16,480 bases of DNA from a virus. Taxonomy: Duplodnaviria > Heunggongvirae > Uroviricota > Caudoviricetes. Of this stretch, positions 490-5,817 are shown piece by piece. The notes beneath the pieces are model-generated. The model made no database searches, was not told the origin of the DNA, and saw only the letters and a program-made list of their open reading frames with translations. Where the stretch lies: IMG/VR virus record IMGVR_UViG_2548876963_000009, one strand, 5' to 3'. The position numbers and the translations under genes were made by a program. How positions within the stretch are numbered: position 1 is the first letter of the stretch; each line of letters opens with the position of its first letter.

Positions 490-738
490 AGCTAAAGTAT
501 TAGCTTAAAAATAAAGCATACCTAGCGAATATAATCTAGGACTAGTTGTAACGCCCGAAATGATTGATTGCGTGAGCAACAAAATTTTTCTTCCATTGTT
601 GTGAAATCATTTAGCCATAAAGTTTATGCAGAGATTTTATTTTATTTTTGAGTTGATTTTTTTGTAACGAGCTGTATATTTCGCGCCTCTTGTCATACCA
701 GTTATTTTTTTCATTATATTCATAACGTTGATTGAACT
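490..738 (+). promoter_or_regulatory. AT-rich leader/promoter region upstream of the adhesin gene (candidate nucleoid-protein-silenced promoter)
   Basis: About 250 bp of visibly AT-rich non-coding sequence with long A/T runs immediately 5' of the ATG at 739. No specific -35/-10 was assigned. Confidence 0.35.
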
Positions 739-3700
739 ATGACCACTGTGAATAAAAAGTTAAAAAAAACTGCATCTGGCGCGATTACATGGTCGGTAAT
801 TGTTACCCAGATATTATCTCCAGTTTCTCTTTCTTTGATCCCAGCAAACAGTTTTGCATCATCTGGTAATAAAGATGTTACGCAAACTTATGCCAGCGAT
901 GAGCATGCAAATAAAGTGGCCTCATTTGCAGCAAGTGCAGGTCAGAGCCTGGCAAATAATAATGCAAGTAGTTTTGCTGTAAATACTTTATCAACTCAGG
1001 CGACAAAAGAGGTCGTCGACTGGTTGCAACAATATGGCAATGCGCGCATCAAGCTTAATGTCGATGATTCTTTTTCCTTGAAGGATTCATCATTCGACTT
1101 TTTATATCCATGGCTGGATACTCAGGATTATGTGCTATTCAGTCAGACATCACTACATCGTACTGATGACCGAAATCAGACCAATATTGGTTTGGGGATT
1201 CGTCATTTCACTCCTGATAACGCAATGTTGGGTGCGAATGTTTTCTATGATTACGATTTAAGTCGCAGTCACTCTCGTGCAGGTTTTGGGGTTGAGTACT
1301 GGAGAGATTATTTCAGGCTTGGTGTAAATACCTATTTTGGTTTGTCTGACTGGAAGAACAGTCGGGATATTGATGATTATCTGGAAAGACCCGCAAATGG
1401 CTGGGATTTTTCTGCTGAAGGATGGCTACCTGCTTATCCGCAATTAGGGGCATCCATTCAGTTTGAAAAATATTATGGTAAAAATGTCGGGTTATTTGGA
1501 AGCGATAATCTGCAGGAAAACCCTTACGCAGTTACTGGGGGAATTTCTTATACACCAGTTCCTCTGATTAAGTTTTCTGCACAGCATAAGCAAGGACAGA
1601 GCAACGTTCACGATACAACCTTTGGTGTTGAGTTTAATTATCGCCCGGGCGTTTCCCTTGCTGAACAGCTTAGCAATGACAATGTTGCTGTTATGCGAGA
1701 AGTCCAGAACCGGCGTTATGATTTTGTTGAACGAAATAACAACATTGTTCTGGAGTACAAGAAGAAGCATGCACTGAAAATCAGCTTACCAGAGTCTGTT
1801 CAGGGGGAGGGGGAATCAATCATCCCTGTAACACTGACAATCAACAATGCTAGTGGTGGTATCAAGTCTGTACAGTGGAATGATAGTGCATTCACTGCGG
1901 CTGGCGGTAAGATCAGTGGAAATGGCACATCATGGCAGATCACTTTACCGGCTTATAAAAGCGGAGATGTAAATTCGTGGAATGTTGGAGCCACAGTCCA
2001 GGATAACAGAGGCAATGTTTCCAACTATGCCGTTATGAATATCAGCGTTAATAATAGTGGTGTCTCGACAGCGGATTCATCTTTTACACTGGATGGAGAT
2101 TCGTCGCCGACGATCTCTGCTGATAGCCAATCCACTTATCCGATAGTATTAAGCCTGAAAGACAGTAACGGTAAGGCATTAACCGGACTGGCTGATGACA
2201 TTGAAATGTCAGTGGAATTTACAGCAGATAGCAATAGTGCTCGACAGCGTGAAACGGTAACTGCTCCGTCATTAGGCGCGGTAGAGGAAATCTCTGCTGG
2301 GGTATATCACTCTGTTCTGACTGCTGGTTCGCAGGCTGGTACGGTACGTGTAACTGCAAAAGTTCAGGGAAAAACATTTACTCTCAGTATTAAGCAAACA
2401 GCAGCAACAGAACCTGATTCTGAGGTCAGTGCTGTTTTAACCGCTGCACCAGCAGAACAGGTAGTTGGTTACAATATCAATCTACAACTGGCAGTGAAGG
2501 ATTCACAAGGAAATGCAATCACTGGTGATAACACTCTGAGCTTTTATGCTCTTAACCAGGCAGAAGGAGTCGAGTTTGGGACTGTAACGGAAAAAGACGG
2601 TGTCTATAGCGCGACAGTAACTTCAAAACGAGCTGGTAAGATTACTATCGGTGTTAAATCTGATAGTCATGATTTCTCAGGTGTTAAGAAAGAAATCACC
2701 TTTATTGAGGACCGGCAGCAGGTTACATTCTCTCAGTTTGAAGCCAGCCAAAATAATGCATTGGCTGATGGAAAACAGAGAAATATGGTAACTGTAAGCC
2801 TTGCGGACCGTTTCGGCAATGTTGTTCCTGGTTATGCTGTCACATTGTCTTTACCAGCAGGGATAACTCAAGTTGGTGGTGAACATGCTGTTTCAACTGA
2901 CGAAAATGGTAATGCTATTTTTGCGTTAATAAGCTCCACTCCGGGGTCTTACGTGATTACAGCTCATGCTGGTTCTCAGATGTCTACTGAGTTAACAGTG
3001 ACCTTTGCATCAAATATGACCGGAGCTTCACTGTCACTGACGCCTGAAAGCAGTAGTTTAATTTCCAATATTCCTGCTAATGGTAAGGATGCAGCGGTAT
3101 TAGATGTGCAGCTGACAAATACGAATGCGTCGGTCAATGGGCAAAAGATTCAGCTCATTACCTCATCTGAAGGATTATCTGTACCAACAAATATCGTGAC
3201 TGATTCAACGGGGCATGTTTCTGTTCCGCTTACAACGGTGAAAGCTGGTGAGTACACGGTGACTGCACGGGTGACTGACGGTTCCCATAGCGTGGAATCT
3301 GGCAGCGTTAAGTTAACTTTTGTGCCCGATGTTGCTTCTGCAGAATTTACTATGAGTGTATCAAAACAGGAGATTGTGGCCGATGGCAGTGAAAACGCAA
3401 CAGTAAACATTCAGTTGGTTGATGCGAATAACAATGCGTTTACAGGCGAGGTGGATTTAACGATTACACCATCGACGGGAGCATCATTGACCAGTAGTAA
3501 TCTGCAACTGGATGCTCATGGACAGGCAACAACGCAGTTCACTGCATCGAAATCAGGCCAGTACACAATTCAGGCCGAGTATGTTCTGGATGGGAAACGC
3601 ATAACCGCAAGCCAGAATATTGATGCAGTGACGGATGTGAAGGGGGCTGTGTTGGAGATCACATCATCTGCATCTTCGGCTGTAGTGAGCGATACCAACA

Positions 3701-4290
3701 ATCTGGTATTTACGTTACTGTTGAAAAGTAAGTCAGGCGAAGCATTAAGTGGTCGAGCATTGAATGTTAAGACATCTGGGCCGTCTAAATATGGTGCGTT
3801 GGTGGTTGATAAAACCACAGTAACGACTGATGAGAACGGTCAGGCTACGGTAAGCGTACATGGTCGAACGGTTGGTTCGTATAAATTAACGGCGACCTTA
3901 AACGAACTTGGCAGTGATGTTAGCGCGGTGAAATCATTCTCCCTGTACGCTGATGACGCAAATGGAGTATTGACTCTAACAAAAGATCCTGGTTATGAGA
4001 CAAACGATGGCTCTCCAGTAGGTATTTATGCTCGATTTGTCGATCATTTTGGAAACCCATTATCTGGTACGGTTGAGTTTTCTGCTGGTAGTGAAGATAG
4101 TCCAGGCTCTCAACGGGTCAAAATGGAGCCTGCTACAGTAACGTTACACTGGACAGGTAATGCAGCTTCGGAATTCAGCACCTATGAAAGTGGTTATCAC
4201 TGGATTAAGGCCAAAATAACGAATAGCAAAAATACATATGAGAAAACAATAAGGACTTATGTTGTAAAACTACCTGAAAAGGATAGTTAA
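739..4290 (+). CDS. Inverse autotransporter adhesin of the intimin/invasin family: N-terminal signal and beta-barrel region followed by multiple bacterial Ig-like (Big) repeats and an unassigned C-terminal domain
   Basis: 1183-aa ORF. The N-terminal ~330 aa have the aromatic-rich beta-strand pattern of intimin/invasin barrels. The remainder is Thr/Ser/Val-rich tandem ~100-aa repeats with recurring motifs (e.g. GxxxxTVTA, SxxxFTxxxTAG). The gene is visibly lower in GC than the flanking phage genes. Confidence 0.8.
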   Translation: MTTVNKKLKKTASGAITWSVIVTQILSPVSLSLIPANSFASSGNKDVTQTYASDEHANKVASFAASAGQSLANNNASSFAVNTLSTQATKEVVDWLQQYGNARIKLNVDDSFSLKDSSFDFLYPWLDTQDYVLFSQTSLHRTDDRNQTNIGLGIRHFTPDNAMLGANVFYDYDLSRSHSRAGFGVEYWRDYFRLGVNTYFGLSDWKNSRDIDDYLERPANGWDFSAEGWLPAYPQLGASIQFEKYYGKNVGLFGSDNLQENPYAVTGGISYTPVPLIKFSAQHKQGQSNVHDTTFGVEFNYRPGVSLAEQLSNDNVAVMREVQNRRYDFVERNNNIVLEYKKKHALKISLPESVQGEGESIIPVTLTINNASGGIKSVQWNDSAFTAAGGKISGNGTSWQITLPAYKSGDVNSWNVGATVQDNRGNVSNYAVMNISVNNSGVSTADSSFTLDGDSSPTISADSQSTYPIVLSLKDSNGKALTGLADDIEMSVEFTADSNSARQRETVTAPSLGAVEEISAGVYHSVLTAGSQAGTVRVTAKVQGKTFTLSIKQTAATEPDSEVSAVLTAAPAEQVVGYNINLQLAVKDSQGNAITGDNTLSFYALNQAEGVEFGTVTEKDGVYSATVTSKRAGKITIGVKSDSHDFSGVKKEITFIEDRQQVTFSQFEASQNNALADGKQRNMVTVSLADRFGNVVPGYAVTLSLPAGITQVGGEHAVSTDENGNAIFALISSTPGSYVITAHAGSQMSTELTVTFASNMTGASLSLTPESSSLISNIPANGKDAAVLDVQLTNTNASVNGQKIQLITSSEGLSVPTNIVTDSTGHVSVPLTTVKAGEYTVTARVTDGSHSVESGSVKLTFVPDVASAEFTMSVSKQEIVADGSENATVNIQLVDANNNAFTGEVDLTITPSTGASLTSSNLQLDAHGQATTQFTASKSGQYTIQAEYVLDGKRITASQNIDAVTDVKGAVLEITSSASSAVVSDTNNLVFTLLLKSKSGEALSGRALNVKTSGPSKYGALVVDKTTVTTDENGQATVSVHGRTVGSYKLTATLNELGSDVSAVKSFSLYADDANGVLTLTKDPGYETNDGSPVGIYARFVDHFGNPLSGTVEFSAGSEDSPGSQRVKMEPATVTLHWTGNAASEFSTYESGYHWIKAKITNSKNTYEKTIRTYVVKLPEKDS

Positions 4291-4300
4291 CAAAATTGAA

Positions 4301-5370: not shown

Positions 5371-5426
5371 GTTTTACATGCCTTGACTTATCGGATGAAA
5401 TTCTCTTACTGAATTTAACGGCAGTT

Positions 5427-5498
5427 TAATAGCCGTACAACTCGTGGTAGCCAGGGAAATATCCCAGTCGTGGTTAAGGTTGTACTTGACGGCTATTA
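5427..5498. repeat. Long imperfect palindrome in the esterase upstream region (AATAGCCGTACAA ... TTGTAC-ACTTG-ACGGCTATT)
   Basis: A 9-bp perfect inverted repeat AATAGCCGT / ACGGCTATT plus ACAA / TTGT arms, enclosing ~40 bp that contains a second small palindrome GGGA-AATA-TCCC and a direct repeat CGTGG. It lies 57 to 128 bp upstream of the esterase start (5370) on the - strand. Confidence 0.5.
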
Positions 5499-5817
5499 TT
5501 TCAACAATGCTTAAAGTGAGAGCTTAAGGTTATGCGTATGTTTTACAGTCCGAGTAGATTCTGACCAATAGCTTCTTTGTATAATTCTGTCAGAAATAAA
5601 TCTTGGCTTGCATGAAGTTTGAGACCTTATCTTGTTTGATTATGAATAATCAATTCGCCATAATTGTACCACCGGAGCCTGAACAACTCCGGTGACTTCT
5701 GCGCTAAACGGGGACGTTTATGCGCACACACAATCCAAACTCTCTTCTCCCTTCACAGATGCAGAAATGCACCTGCGTTTTTTTGCATCCAGCGTCTGAC
5801 CTCTGTGGAGGTGAAGC

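What the first reader, a model, noticed from the sequence alone, without database searches (positions are those of the whole stretch)
490..5817. Low-GC adhesin + lipoprotein esterase 'moron' in the P/ren-nin slot of the prophage
Between the P-like stop (489) and the ybcN-like gene (5818) sit a 1183-aa intimin/invasin-type inverse autotransporter and a convergent secreted HSL-family esterase. They are separated by a bidirectional terminator and flanked by about 250 bp and 450 bp of AT-rich non-coding DNA. In K-12 DLP12 the same slot, between renD and ybcN, holds different cargo (emrE, ybcK, ybcL, ybcM). The adhesin's C-terminal ~150 aa follow the Ig-like repeats and were not assignable to a known passenger tip domain (lectin-like or otherwise). 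An adhesin plus esterase pair is a plausible colonisation or virulence module.
Basis: partly seen in the sequence, partly recalled or inferred. Interest (0 to 1): 0.5.

Follow-up and report, generated by a model that had tools for sequence, protein, structure and literature searches.

The report
Prophage-borne FdeC-like adhesin plus lipoprotein esterase
A degraded lambda-like prophage of E. coli carries two independently acquired cargo genes, an unnamed intimin/invasin-type surface adhesin of variable length and an outer-membrane lipoprotein esterase. Both are real and widespread, but they are ordinary in kind and are not an obligate pair.

Summary
Window 739-4290 (+) encodes a 1183-aa inverse autotransporter (IAT) and 4327-5370 (-) a 347-aa lipoprotein alpha/beta-hydrolase. 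They sit between a truncated lambda P gene and ylcH-ybcN, in DNA of 43% GC against 49% for the rest.

The interpretation needs three corrections.

1. They are two separate modules, not a pair. The IAT module is 480-4322 and the esterase module 4323-5634. The esterase occurs without the IAT in 8 sequenced lambdoid phages. The IAT occurs without the esterase in 6 of 32 informative prophage loci.

2. The unassigned C-terminus is not a new tip fold. Residues 964-1070 are a Big_1 domain. Residues 1071-1183 model as an eighth invasin/intimin-type Ig domain with no cysteine and no lectin cap. Its sequence is nearly orphan: the only relative outside its own E. coli cluster is a chromosomal E. albertii gene.

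3. The esterase is best placed in the BD-FAE family.

The IAT is in 560 of 5426 complete E. coli genomes (including ST131-labelled strains) and in 0 of 50,697 phage records. It is 42% identical to FdeC over the first 664 residues. Alleles of 1183 to 1540 aa differ by copies of a 119-aa Ig repeat. I found no paper naming it. Verdict: a new, uncharacterised member of a known kind, of moderate interest.

The parts
31..489 (+). 3' fragment of the lambda-type replication gene P. The last 10 bases (480-489), including the stop codon, are supplied by the inserted IAT module.
   Evidence: PF06992 at E 2.5e-44. Annotated as an N-terminally truncated pseudogene in the 99.3% identical SC477 chromosome. 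Homology to P of phage 4A7 ends at window 479.
480..738 (+). AT-rich upstream region of the IAT module (30.5% GC over 490-738). Presumed promoter and regulatory region. Promoter-like hexamers lie at 653-680 and 690-717.
   Evidence: The promoter-like sites are no more numerous than in shuffled sequence, so the promoter is inferred and not shown. Homology to the E. albertii gene starts at window 673.
739..4290 (+). Inverse autotransporter (type Ve) adhesin, 1183 aa. Layout: long signal peptide (~1-40), linker, 12-strand-type barrel (~97-341), D00 (342-438), then Ig domains D1 (439-557), D2 (558-657), D3 (658-758), D4 (759-863), D5 (864-963), D6 (964-1070) and an Ig-like tip (1071-1183). No LysM domain and no cysteine.
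2048..2404 (+). 357-bp (119-aa) Ig-domain unit. It is single-copy here and tandemly repeated 2, 3 or 4 times in other alleles (1302, 1421 and 1540 aa).
   Evidence: Tandem Repeats Finder finds no long-period (357-bp) array in this allele; its only rows are two 10-11-bp micro-repeats.
3949..4287 (+). Tip domain, residues 1071-1183. Predicted invasin/intimin-type Ig fold with a near-orphan sequence.
4302..4322 (+). GC-rich terminator hairpin that belongs to the IAT module. The following T-tract (4323-4329) already belongs to the esterase module.
   Evidence: Phage 4A7 has a different hairpin in front of the same CTTTTTACAG sequence.
4327..5370 (-). Lipoprotein alpha/beta-hydrolase esterase, 347 aa. 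Lipobox SVGS|C25 with Ala at +2, oxyanion motif PGGGF at 92, G-D-S164-A-G, Asp276, His308.
5371..5634 (-). Upstream spacer of the esterase module (38% GC). Presumed promoter region.
   Evidence: Always travels with the esterase.
5635..5817 (+). Conserved lambdoid segment upstream of ybcN. The 33-codon ORF at the K-12 ylcH position (5720-5821) overlaps it. This is the right-hand boundary of the variable slot.

Best explanation
The slot between P and the ylcH-position ORF/ybcN holds two independent lysogenic-conversion cargo cassettes ('morons'), stacked in a recombination-prone slot of DLP12-like lambdoid prophages.

**Cassette 1 (480-4322): an FdeC-like inverse autotransporter.**
- Shown: an N-terminal signal sequence, an intimin/invasin-type outer-membrane barrel, and a C-terminal passenger of eight tandem Ig-like domains with no lectin cap. 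The gene is under purifying selection throughout. The barrel is nearly invariant, while the distal passenger falls into at least three allele classes. Length varies by copies of a 119-aa Ig unit.
- Inferred: the protein is exported by Sec, inserted by BAM, and threads its passenger outward through the barrel. This yields a rod of roughly 30 nm whose reach is tuned by repeat number (a 'periscope' adhesin). It mediates adhesion or biofilm formation through an unknown ligand, as FdeC, IatB, IatC and IatD do. The AT-rich promoter region is probably silenced by H-NS-type regulation.

**Cassette 2 (4323-5634): a Ser164-Asp276-His308 esterase of the BD-FAE / HSL-like family.**
- Shown: the catalytic motifs, a lipobox, and carriage by viable phages.
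- Inferred: lipidation at Cys25, outer-membrane sorting (Ala at +2), and deacylation of a short-chain ester or acetylated glycan at the cell envelope.

The two cassettes co-occur often because they are neighbours, not because they need each other.
For: **Identity of the two genes**

**Module boundaries and independent assortment**
- Boundaries come from the comparison with phage 4A7, prophage AGR6128 and K-12 DLP12.
- The esterase occurs without the IAT in 8 sequenced phages and in AGR6128, in the same position.
- The IAT occurs without the esterase in 6 of 32 informative IMG/VR loci, and it always lies directly after P.
- In complete E. coli genomes the IAT is in 560 of 5426 and the esterase in 681 of 5426.
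- An apparently intact prophage at icd in Ecol_732 carries O-P-IAT(1421 aa)-esterase-ybcN...Q...iss...terminase.

**Foreign composition**
-.

**Selection and allele structure**
- dN/dS is 0.02-0.22 in every region, including the tip.
- The barrel is 99-100% identical between alleles, while D2 to tip is 84-93%.
- Repeat alleles are shown.

**Ig nature of the tip**
-.

**Closest named relative**
- FdeC, 42% identity over 664 aa.

**Function of relatives**
- IatB, IatC and IatD are surface-located and promote biofilm formation. iatB responds to LeuO (PMC6714894).
- Inverse autotransporters are counted among length-variable 'periscope' proteins (PMC9704523).
Against: - No expression, surface display, ligand or enzymatic data exist for either gene.
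- Promoter-like sites are no more frequent than chance, and the IAT start codon has no obvious Shine-Dalgarno sequence.
- The tip model rests on an alignment seeded with paralogous Ig domains of the same protein, which leans towards an Ig fold. The single-sequence model failed, with pLDDT 37.
- The IAT is absent from all 50,697 deposited phage genomes, so its transfer by phage particles is not demonstrated.
- In this window the prophage is a remnant that cannot form particles.
- The esterase substrate is open. Its nearest solved relatives include both a metagenomic lipase (6nkf) and carbohydrate esterases (6mly, 6xyc, 6tkx).
Confidence: 0.75

Rival explanations
1. The adhesin and the esterase form one co-selected colonisation or virulence module. 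In this view the esterase prepares the substrate, for example by deacetylating mucin or other glycans, that the adhesin then binds.
For: They are adjacent in 26 of 32 informative prophage loci and in most IAT-positive complete genomes. Both are envelope proteins. Both have a similar low GC3 of 0.36 and 0.39.
Against: They are convergent, separate transcription units with separate recombination breakpoints. Each is found alone in otherwise collinear prophages or phages. The esterase is older and wider in phages, for example PHB10 at 74% identity. The IAT's only relative, in E. albertii, sits in the chromosome with no esterase beside it.
Confidence: 0.12
2. The cassettes serve the phage rather than the host. 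The lipoprotein esterase would remodel an envelope glycan or receptor (lysogenic conversion or superinfection exclusion, in the manner of phage O-antigen-modifying enzymes or the T5 Llp and lambda Cor type lipoproteins). The long adhesin would shield receptors or aggregate lysogens.
For: The esterase is kept at 97-99% identity in eight independently isolated, viable lambdoid phages at the same position. It is exported as a lipoprotein. The neighbouring slot cargo in relatives includes the exclusion gene ren.
Against: There are no PADLOC defence-model hits for either protein. No esterase of this family is known to me to act in exclusion. The IAT is not seen in any deposited phage genome.
Confidence: 0.1
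3. The genes are decaying passengers of a dead prophage and no longer function.
For: The prophage in this window is a remnant: truncated P, no immunity, lysis or structural genes, and IS3/IS110 elements. IS insertions in or next to the cassette occur in some genomes. The E. albertii relative examined is frameshifted.
Against: Both ORFs are intact here and in hundreds of genomes. dN/dS is well below 1 across the whole IAT. The esterase catalytic triad and lipobox are intact.
Confidence: 0.03

Closest known systems
FdeC / EaeH (E. coli inverse autotransporter adhesin)
   Different: Distal domains are only 22-26% identical. The protein is 1183 aa rather than 1416. It lies on a prophage and not at the chromosomal fdeC locus. 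Both genes are present in the same genome, SC477, so it is a paralogue and not an allele. PGAP does not name it FdeC.
Intimin (Eae) and Yersinia invasin
   Same: The barrel matches the solved invasin and intimin barrels at E 1e-73 and 1e-63. The D00 domain matches intimin D00 (6tqd) at E 8e-10. The passenger consists of Big_1/Invasin_D3 repeats.
   Different: No LysM domain, no C-type-lectin-like terminal domain and no cysteines at all. The NCBIfam intimin score is 347 bits against a cutoff of 1400.
Chromosomal IAT of Escherichia albertii between patD (ydcW) and ortT (ydcX)
   Same: It is the only other lineage that shares the tip domain (54% identity), with ~74-80% identity over the N-terminal 733 aa.
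   Different: It is chromosomal, not in a prophage, and has no adjacent esterase. It has about two fewer Ig domains. It is frameshifted in the contig examined.
Periscope proteins (length-variable repeat surface proteins; PMC9704523)
   Same: A near-identical tandem Ig unit of 119 aa (357 bp) is present in 1 to 4 copies between strains.
   Different: Only one of the eight Ig domains is amplified. No functional data link length to phenotype.
Lambdoid morons (bor/iss, lom) and the DLP12 slot cargo (ren, emrE, ybcK, ybcL, ybcM)
   Same: Same slot and the same mosaic replacement pattern. Composition is foreign, the cassette has its own terminator, and presence or absence varies among collinear phages.
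   Different: A 3.6-kb type Ve secretion adhesin is unusually large cargo. No inverse autotransporter relative is found in any of 50,697 deposited phage records.
BD-FAE carbohydrate esterases (for example the Bacteroides GH43-CE protein 6mly) and the metagenomic lipase Lip_vut4 (6nkf)
   Same: PF20434 at 152.7 bits. The Ser-Asp-His triad aligns, including GDSAG, HGxxD and the GxxH motifs.
   Different: It is a stand-alone enterobacterial lipoprotein on a phage. The substrate is unknown. It is not the E. coli HSL-type acetyl esterase Aes (NF007547, 57.6 bits against a cutoff of 389).
NanS-p, the prophage-encoded sialate O-acetylesterases of EHEC (from my own knowledge, not tested here)
   Same: The concept of a lambdoid-prophage esterase moron that could give lysogens access to acetylated host glycans.
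   Different: NanS-p enzymes are, as I recall, SGNH-type and not alpha/beta-hydrolase lipoproteins. No sequence relationship was tested or is claimed.

Membership tests
Inverse autotransporter (type Ve secretion, intimin/invasin family) | Intimin-like beta-barrel domain (PF11924) N-terminal to the passenger | tested here: met
   PF11924 at residues 57-334, E 4.8e-101. Matches solved barrels 4e1t and 4e1s at E 1e-73 and 1e-63 over residues 97-341.
Inverse autotransporter (type Ve secretion, intimin/invasin family) | C-terminal passenger built of bacterial Ig-like (Big) domains | tested here: met
   Big_1 at E 3e-55 and Invasin_D3 at E 6e-47. An internal repeat profile finds 7 units. D00 matches intimin 6tqd.
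Inverse autotransporter (type Ve secretion, intimin/invasin family) | N-terminal Sec signal peptide | tested here: inconclusive
   A basic and then hydrophobic N-terminus ending in ANSFA|SS is visible by eye. No signal-peptide predictor was available.
Intimin / invasin proper | C-type-lectin-like, disulfide-bonded terminal domain. LysM is present in intimin. | tested here: not met
   No LysM or Intimin_C hit. Zero cysteines. The tip models as an Ig domain. NF033627 scores 347 bits against a cutoff of 1400.
Named E. coli IATs: IatC, SinH/IatB, YchO/IatA | NCBIfam equivalog score at or above the curated cutoff | tested here: not met
   IatC_Nterm 403 against 2400; SinH 317 against 999; YchO 271 against 508.
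FdeC | Orthology: high full-length identity and the conserved chromosomal locus | tested here: not met
   42% identity over the first 664 aa and 22-26% beyond. fdeC is present separately in the same genome.
Moron (phage cargo cassette) | Presence or absence among otherwise collinear phages, with deviant composition | tested here: met
   for presence or absence. for GC (43% against 49%) and GC3.
Moron (phage cargo cassette) | Own terminator | tested here: met
   Hairpin at 4302-4322 followed by a T-tract, -18.1 kcal/mol. The hairpin is specific to the IAT module.
Moron (phage cargo cassette) | Own promoter, expressed from the repressed prophage | tested here: inconclusive
   Promoter-like hexamers lie at 653-680 and 690-717, but the count is no greater than in shuffles. 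Expression cannot be tested here.
BD-FAE / HSL-like alpha/beta-hydrolase esterase | Family profile above cutoff, with a GxSxG nucleophile, acid and His | tested here: met
   PF20434 at 152.7 bits against 26.8, and PF07859 at 79.4 against 25. GDS164AG, D276 and H308 align with 6nkf and 6mly.
Bacterial lipoprotein | Lipobox with invariant Cys after a signal sequence | tested here: inconclusive
   MKINKILSSATLLYGMSMAMSVGS|C25 is read by eye. Cys25 is the only Cys and +2 is Ala. No predictor or experiment was available.
Periscope protein | Near-identical tandem repeats whose number varies between strains | tested here: met
   Alleles of 1183, 1302, 1421 and 1540 aa differ by 119 aa, and the repeat copies are 93-100% identical at DNA level to the window's single copy. 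A 1064-aa variant is an in-frame deletion in a different register.

The most novel reading that the evidence does not exclude
This may be the first inverse autotransporter that moves on a lambdoid phage. It would be an unnamed FdeC-like 'periscope' adhesin with a lineage-restricted tip, shared only with E. albertii, that binds a ligand none of the known E. coli IATs bind. Its spread through about 10% of E. coli, including ST131-labelled strains, would then have contributed to colonisation success by lysogenic conversion.
Probability: 0.2. Interest if true: 0.6.

Novelty: new member of a known kind. Interest (0 to 1): 0.38.

Why it matters
Adhesins are colonisation factors and vaccine candidates in extraintestinal E. 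coli; FdeC and SinH have both been pursued in that way. This gene adds an eighth, prophage-borne IAT lineage to the seven groups catalogued for E. coli (PMC6714894).

It is present in about one in ten complete genomes, including ST131-labelled isolates. Its built-in length polymorphism and three passenger allele classes point to immune or niche selection.

It also shows how one slot of DLP12-like phages swaps cargo at terminator hairpins. The finding matters less than first proposed because the adhesin-esterase pairing is incidental and the tip is a further Ig domain, not a new fold.

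Tried and rejected
- **Word-indexed homologue search with the C-terminal 220 aa.** It returned a single fragment. The exhaustive representative search was needed.
- **Weak hits in that exhaustive search.** P0128 to P0137 are periodic repeat proteins. I dismissed them as spurious after reading a sample of them, P0128, P0130 and P0131.
- **Single-sequence AlphaFold2 of residues 964-1183.** It failed, with pLDDT 36.7.
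- **First MAFFT attempt at an alignment for modelling (A3).** It placed the paralogous domains beside the tip instead of over it and was discarded in favour of A4.
- **Pfam hit of the tip to Med13_N.** At 20.8 bits it is below the cutoff of 26 and is treated as noise.
- **Literature.** Six searches, including one by RefSeq protein accession, found no paper that names or studies this IAT or esterase. Papers that looked promising turned out to concern FdeC, SinH or IatC.
- **Rfam.** It found nothing in 490-5817; the only hit is isrC inside the IS3 element.
- **PADLOC.** No defence-system hits.
- **Genome-representative scan.** It gave only E. albertii plus a 357-bp contig labelled Moraxella osloensis (L009, 91% identity to the repeat unit). 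I regard that contig as probable contamination and did not pursue it.
- **A packaging limit as the reason the IAT is absent from phage isolates.** I considered this, but the IAT module adds only about 1.0-1.7 kb net relative to phage 4A7 (49.2 kb), so the explanation is weak.

Full report
**1. What is in the sequence**

- a P fragment at 31-489
- a 1183-aa ORF at 739-4290 (+)
- a convergent 347-aa ORF at 4327-5370 (-)
- a GTG-initiated ybcN at 5818-6273

Pfam assigns the long ORF an inverse-autotransporter barrel (PF11924, residues 57-334, E 4.8e-101) and multiple Big_1/Invasin_D3 repeats. It assigns the short ORF to BD-FAE (PF20434, E 1.3e-44) and Abhydrolase_3. The barrel aligns with the solved invasin and intimin barrels (4e1t at E 1.4e-73, 4e1s at E 1.1e-62). 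The first passenger domain aligns with intimin D00 (6tqd, E 8e-10).

A nine-base-pair GC-rich hairpin at 4302-4322 sits between the two stop codons, with a folding energy of -18.1 kcal/mol. It is followed by a T-run on the + strand only.

Region 490-5634 is 43.0% GC against 49.2% for the rest of the window. GC3 is 0.36 and 0.39 for the two genes, against 0.46-0.62 for the phage neighbours. The spacer upstream of the adhesin is 30.5% GC.

**2. The setting**

The first 7 kb of the window are 99.3% identical to the chromosome of E. coli SC477. There P is annotated as an N-terminally truncated pseudogene that abuts gam, so the immunity region, O and most of P are deleted. The remnant is flanked by IS3-family copies next to yagU and the ecp operon.

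K-12 DLP12 holds ren (split by IS3), emrE, ylcJ, ybcK, ybcL and ybcM in the same slot, followed by the same 102-nt ORF and ybcN.

**3. Two modules, not one**

I aligned the window with phage 4A7 (a viable 49.2-kb lambdoid phage), the AGR6128 prophage and K-12. Three breakpoints emerge:
- Homology to P stops at window 479, so the insert supplies the last codons and the stop of P.
- Homology resumes at 4323, immediately after the hairpin.
- K-12 homology resumes at 5635.

In 4A7 and AGR6128 the order is P-ren-emrE-hyp-ybcK-esterase-ybcN. There the esterase is present without the adhesin, and a different hairpin precedes the same CTTTTTACAG tract.

Eight deposited phages carry the esterase at 98.7-98.8% DNA identity. 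None of the 50,697 phage records carries the adhesin at DNA level or any inverse-autotransporter relative at protein level. The two tblastn hits are a Salmonella bacterial WGS contig held in the collection and an unannotated 2.1-kb record (ECO95 1-6-1), neither of which is a complete phage genome.

Conversely, I examined 37 IMG/VR prophage loci with the adhesin, of which 32 are informative for the downstream side:
- 26 have the esterase downstream.
- 6 have the adhesin followed directly by the ylcH-ybcN segment.
- The adhesin always follows P directly.

In complete E. coli genomes the adhesin's N-terminal part is in 560 of 5426 and the esterase in 681 of 5426. In Ecol_732 the pair sits in an apparently complete prophage at icd, running int...exo-bet-gam...cI-cro-O-P-IAT(1421 aa)-esterase-ybcN...Q...lysis-iss...terminase-portal.

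The 'pair' is therefore two neighbouring cassettes that assort independently.

**4. The adhesin**

No NCBIfam equivalog cutoff is reached:
- IatC N-terminal model 403 bits against 2400
- intimin 347 against 1400
- SinH 317 against 999
- YchO 271 against 508

There is no LysM domain and no cysteine. The closest named E. coli protein is FdeC. Identity is 42% over the first 664 residues, from signal peptide to the second Ig domain, and 22-26% beyond that. fdeC is present as a separate gene in the same SC477 genome.

The best database relatives are the same protein at 1302, 1421 and 1540 aa. The difference is a 119-aa Ig unit (residues 439-557; window 2048-2404) present in 1 to 4 near-identical tandem copies. 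The window has one copy. A 1064-aa variant is an in-frame deletion in another register. This is the 'periscope protein' pattern, a class that explicitly includes inverse autotransporters (PMC9704523).

Three passenger allele classes exist. The barrel is 99-100% identical between them, while D2 to tip is 84-93%. Pairwise dN/dS is 0.02-0.22 in every segment, including the tip. The whole protein is therefore under purifying selection. The larger synonymous divergence in the distal segments (dS 0.2-0.4 against 0.07-0.10 in the barrel) points to recombination of older distal alleles, as with intimin subtypes (PMC4943183).

**5. The C-terminal ~150 residues**

Residues 964-1070 are a recognisable Big_1 domain (E 7.7e-10 on the fragment). 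The last 113 residues have no Pfam match.

An exhaustive HMMER search of 1.84 billion representative proteins found 16 hits. The top six are the protein's own cluster, E. coli fragments of it, and one 135-aa sequence with 54% identity (P0125). The other ten are weak matches to proteins with many matched stretches. The three of these I read are periodic repeat proteins, and I treat the group as spurious.

P0125 is the C-terminus of a frameshifted inverse autotransporter lying between patD and ortT in a contig whose flanks are 90% identical to E. coli. That contig is 99.4% identical to the E. albertii type strain. This gene is 74-80% identical to the window's adhesin in the N-terminal part and about 60% in the C-terminal part.

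The fold of the tip rests on these results:
- An internal-repeat profile built from the protein's own Ig domains picks up residues 1090-1160 before they were included in the model (domain E 4e-4).
- hhalign of the tip against the six internal domains aligns them in register (E 4.7e-4, probability 32%).
- A global MAFFT alignment shows the same register, with three invariant glycines.
- AlphaFold2 on that alignment gives pLDDT 85.3 and pTM 0.79, with eight strands. The single-sequence run had failed.
- Foldseek's best PDB matches are intimin D00-D0.

The caveat is that the alignment was seeded with paralogues, which leans towards this answer. With that caveat, the tip is an eighth invasin/intimin-type Ig domain with a nearly orphan sequence. 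It is not a lectin-like cap.

**6. The esterase**

The N-terminus MKINKILSSATLLYGMSMAMSVGS|C carries a lipobox. Cys25 is the only cysteine and Ala is at +2.

The catalytic residues align with relatives as follows:
- G-D-S164-A-G, H-G-S-K-D276 and G-A-E-H308 align with the corresponding motifs of the metagenomic lipase Lip_vut4 (6nkf, E 4.9e-36) and of the esterase domain of a bifunctional GH43-CE protein (6mly, E 1.4e-22).
- G-D-S164-A-G also aligns with the nucleophile motif of an acetyl xylan esterase (6xyc). That alignment ends at residue 312 and also covers the Asp and His motifs.

It is not Aes (57.6 bits against a cutoff of 389). PHROGs already holds it as phrog_3341 'esterase'. PHROGs holds the adhesin as phrog_7803 and phrog_16344, both 'unknown function'. 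A 74%-identical copy is in phage PHB10.

**7. Mechanism**

Shown: domain content, module boundaries, independent assortment, purifying selection and repeat polymorphism.

Inferred from the established biology of type Ve secretion and from the E. coli IATs studied by Goh et al. (PMC6714894):
- Sec export, BAM insertion and outward threading of an eight-domain Ig rod whose reach depends on repeat number
- adhesion or biofilm promotion through an unknown ligand
- silencing of the AT-rich promoter region, relieved by LeuO-type antagonists

For the esterase the inferences are lipidation, outer-membrane anchoring and hydrolysis of a short acyl or acetyl ester on an envelope-proximal substrate.

The rival readings are set out in the Rival explanations section with their refutation tests: a functional pair, a phage-serving exclusion function, and dead cargo.

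**8. Novelty**

Six literature searches, one of them by RefSeq accession, found no paper naming this adhesin or esterase. The E. coli IAT survey lists seven groups, none of them prophage-borne or of this size. The family-wide survey never mentions phage.

The proteins are, however, already in RefSeq with generic names and in PHROGs. This is a new, uncharacterised member of a known kind. It is moderately interesting for E. coli adhesin and prophage biology, and less so than the 'adhesin plus esterase virulence module with an unknown tip' framing suggested.

Noticed in passing
window 1-56 and 16425-16480: The last 56 bases repeat the first 56 exactly, so the window reads as a closed 16,424-bp unit. 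Relative to the SC477 chromosome, the segment between two directly repeated IS3 copies is joined through a single IS3 copy. This could be an assembly loop, a tandem duplication or a real IS-mediated circle. I could not tell which.
   Followed up: partly
window ~6817-9440: An IS3-family element (ISEc31-like; rve and HTH_21 domains at 7299-7820) is interrupted at about 7757/9132 by an IS110-family ISEc21 (transposase at 8039-9115). The same nested arrangement occurs in EPEC E2348/69 and other genomes. The only Rfam hit in the window, isrC at 6885-7007, lies inside this IS3.
   Followed up: partly
window 10283-11729: A divergent pair lies in the early-left region of the prophage remnant: a PACE-family (chlorhexidine-type, PF05232) efflux transporter at 10283-10741 (-) and a LysR regulator at 10845-11729 (+). 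This is another low-GC (43-47%) cargo cassette, also present in SC477.
   Followed up: no
window 15889-16480 wrapping to 1-489: gam is followed after about 160 bp by the truncated P gene. One deletion has removed kil, the immunity region, O and the 5' part of P. The remnant cannot replicate or be induced.
   Followed up: partly
L005 7389-10408 and L008 (E. albertii): E. albertii carries a chromosomal homologue of the adhesin between patD and ortT, at 46.5% GC against 51% upstream. In the contig examined it is split by a frameshift into ORFs of 738 and 135 aa and lacks about 167 aa, roughly two Ig domains.
   Followed up: partly
L009 (357-bp contig labelled Moraxella osloensis): A 357-bp contig, exactly one repeat unit long, encodes residues 432-543 of the adhesin at 91% identity. 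This is probably contamination or a mis-binned read in that assembly.
   Followed up: no
L007 4980-5000 versus window 4302-4322: Where the cargo upstream of the esterase differs (ybcK in phage 4A7, the adhesin here), each has its own GC-rich hairpin abutting the identical CTTTTTACAG tract. The recombination breakpoint therefore falls exactly at the boundary between terminator stem and T-tract.
   Followed up: partly
L001 / L047-L048 (SC477 chromosome): In SC477 the prophage remnant with the FdeC-like adhesin lies only about 22 kb from the chromosomal fdeC gene, with the ecp pilus operon between them. Three adhesin loci are thus clustered.
   Followed up: no
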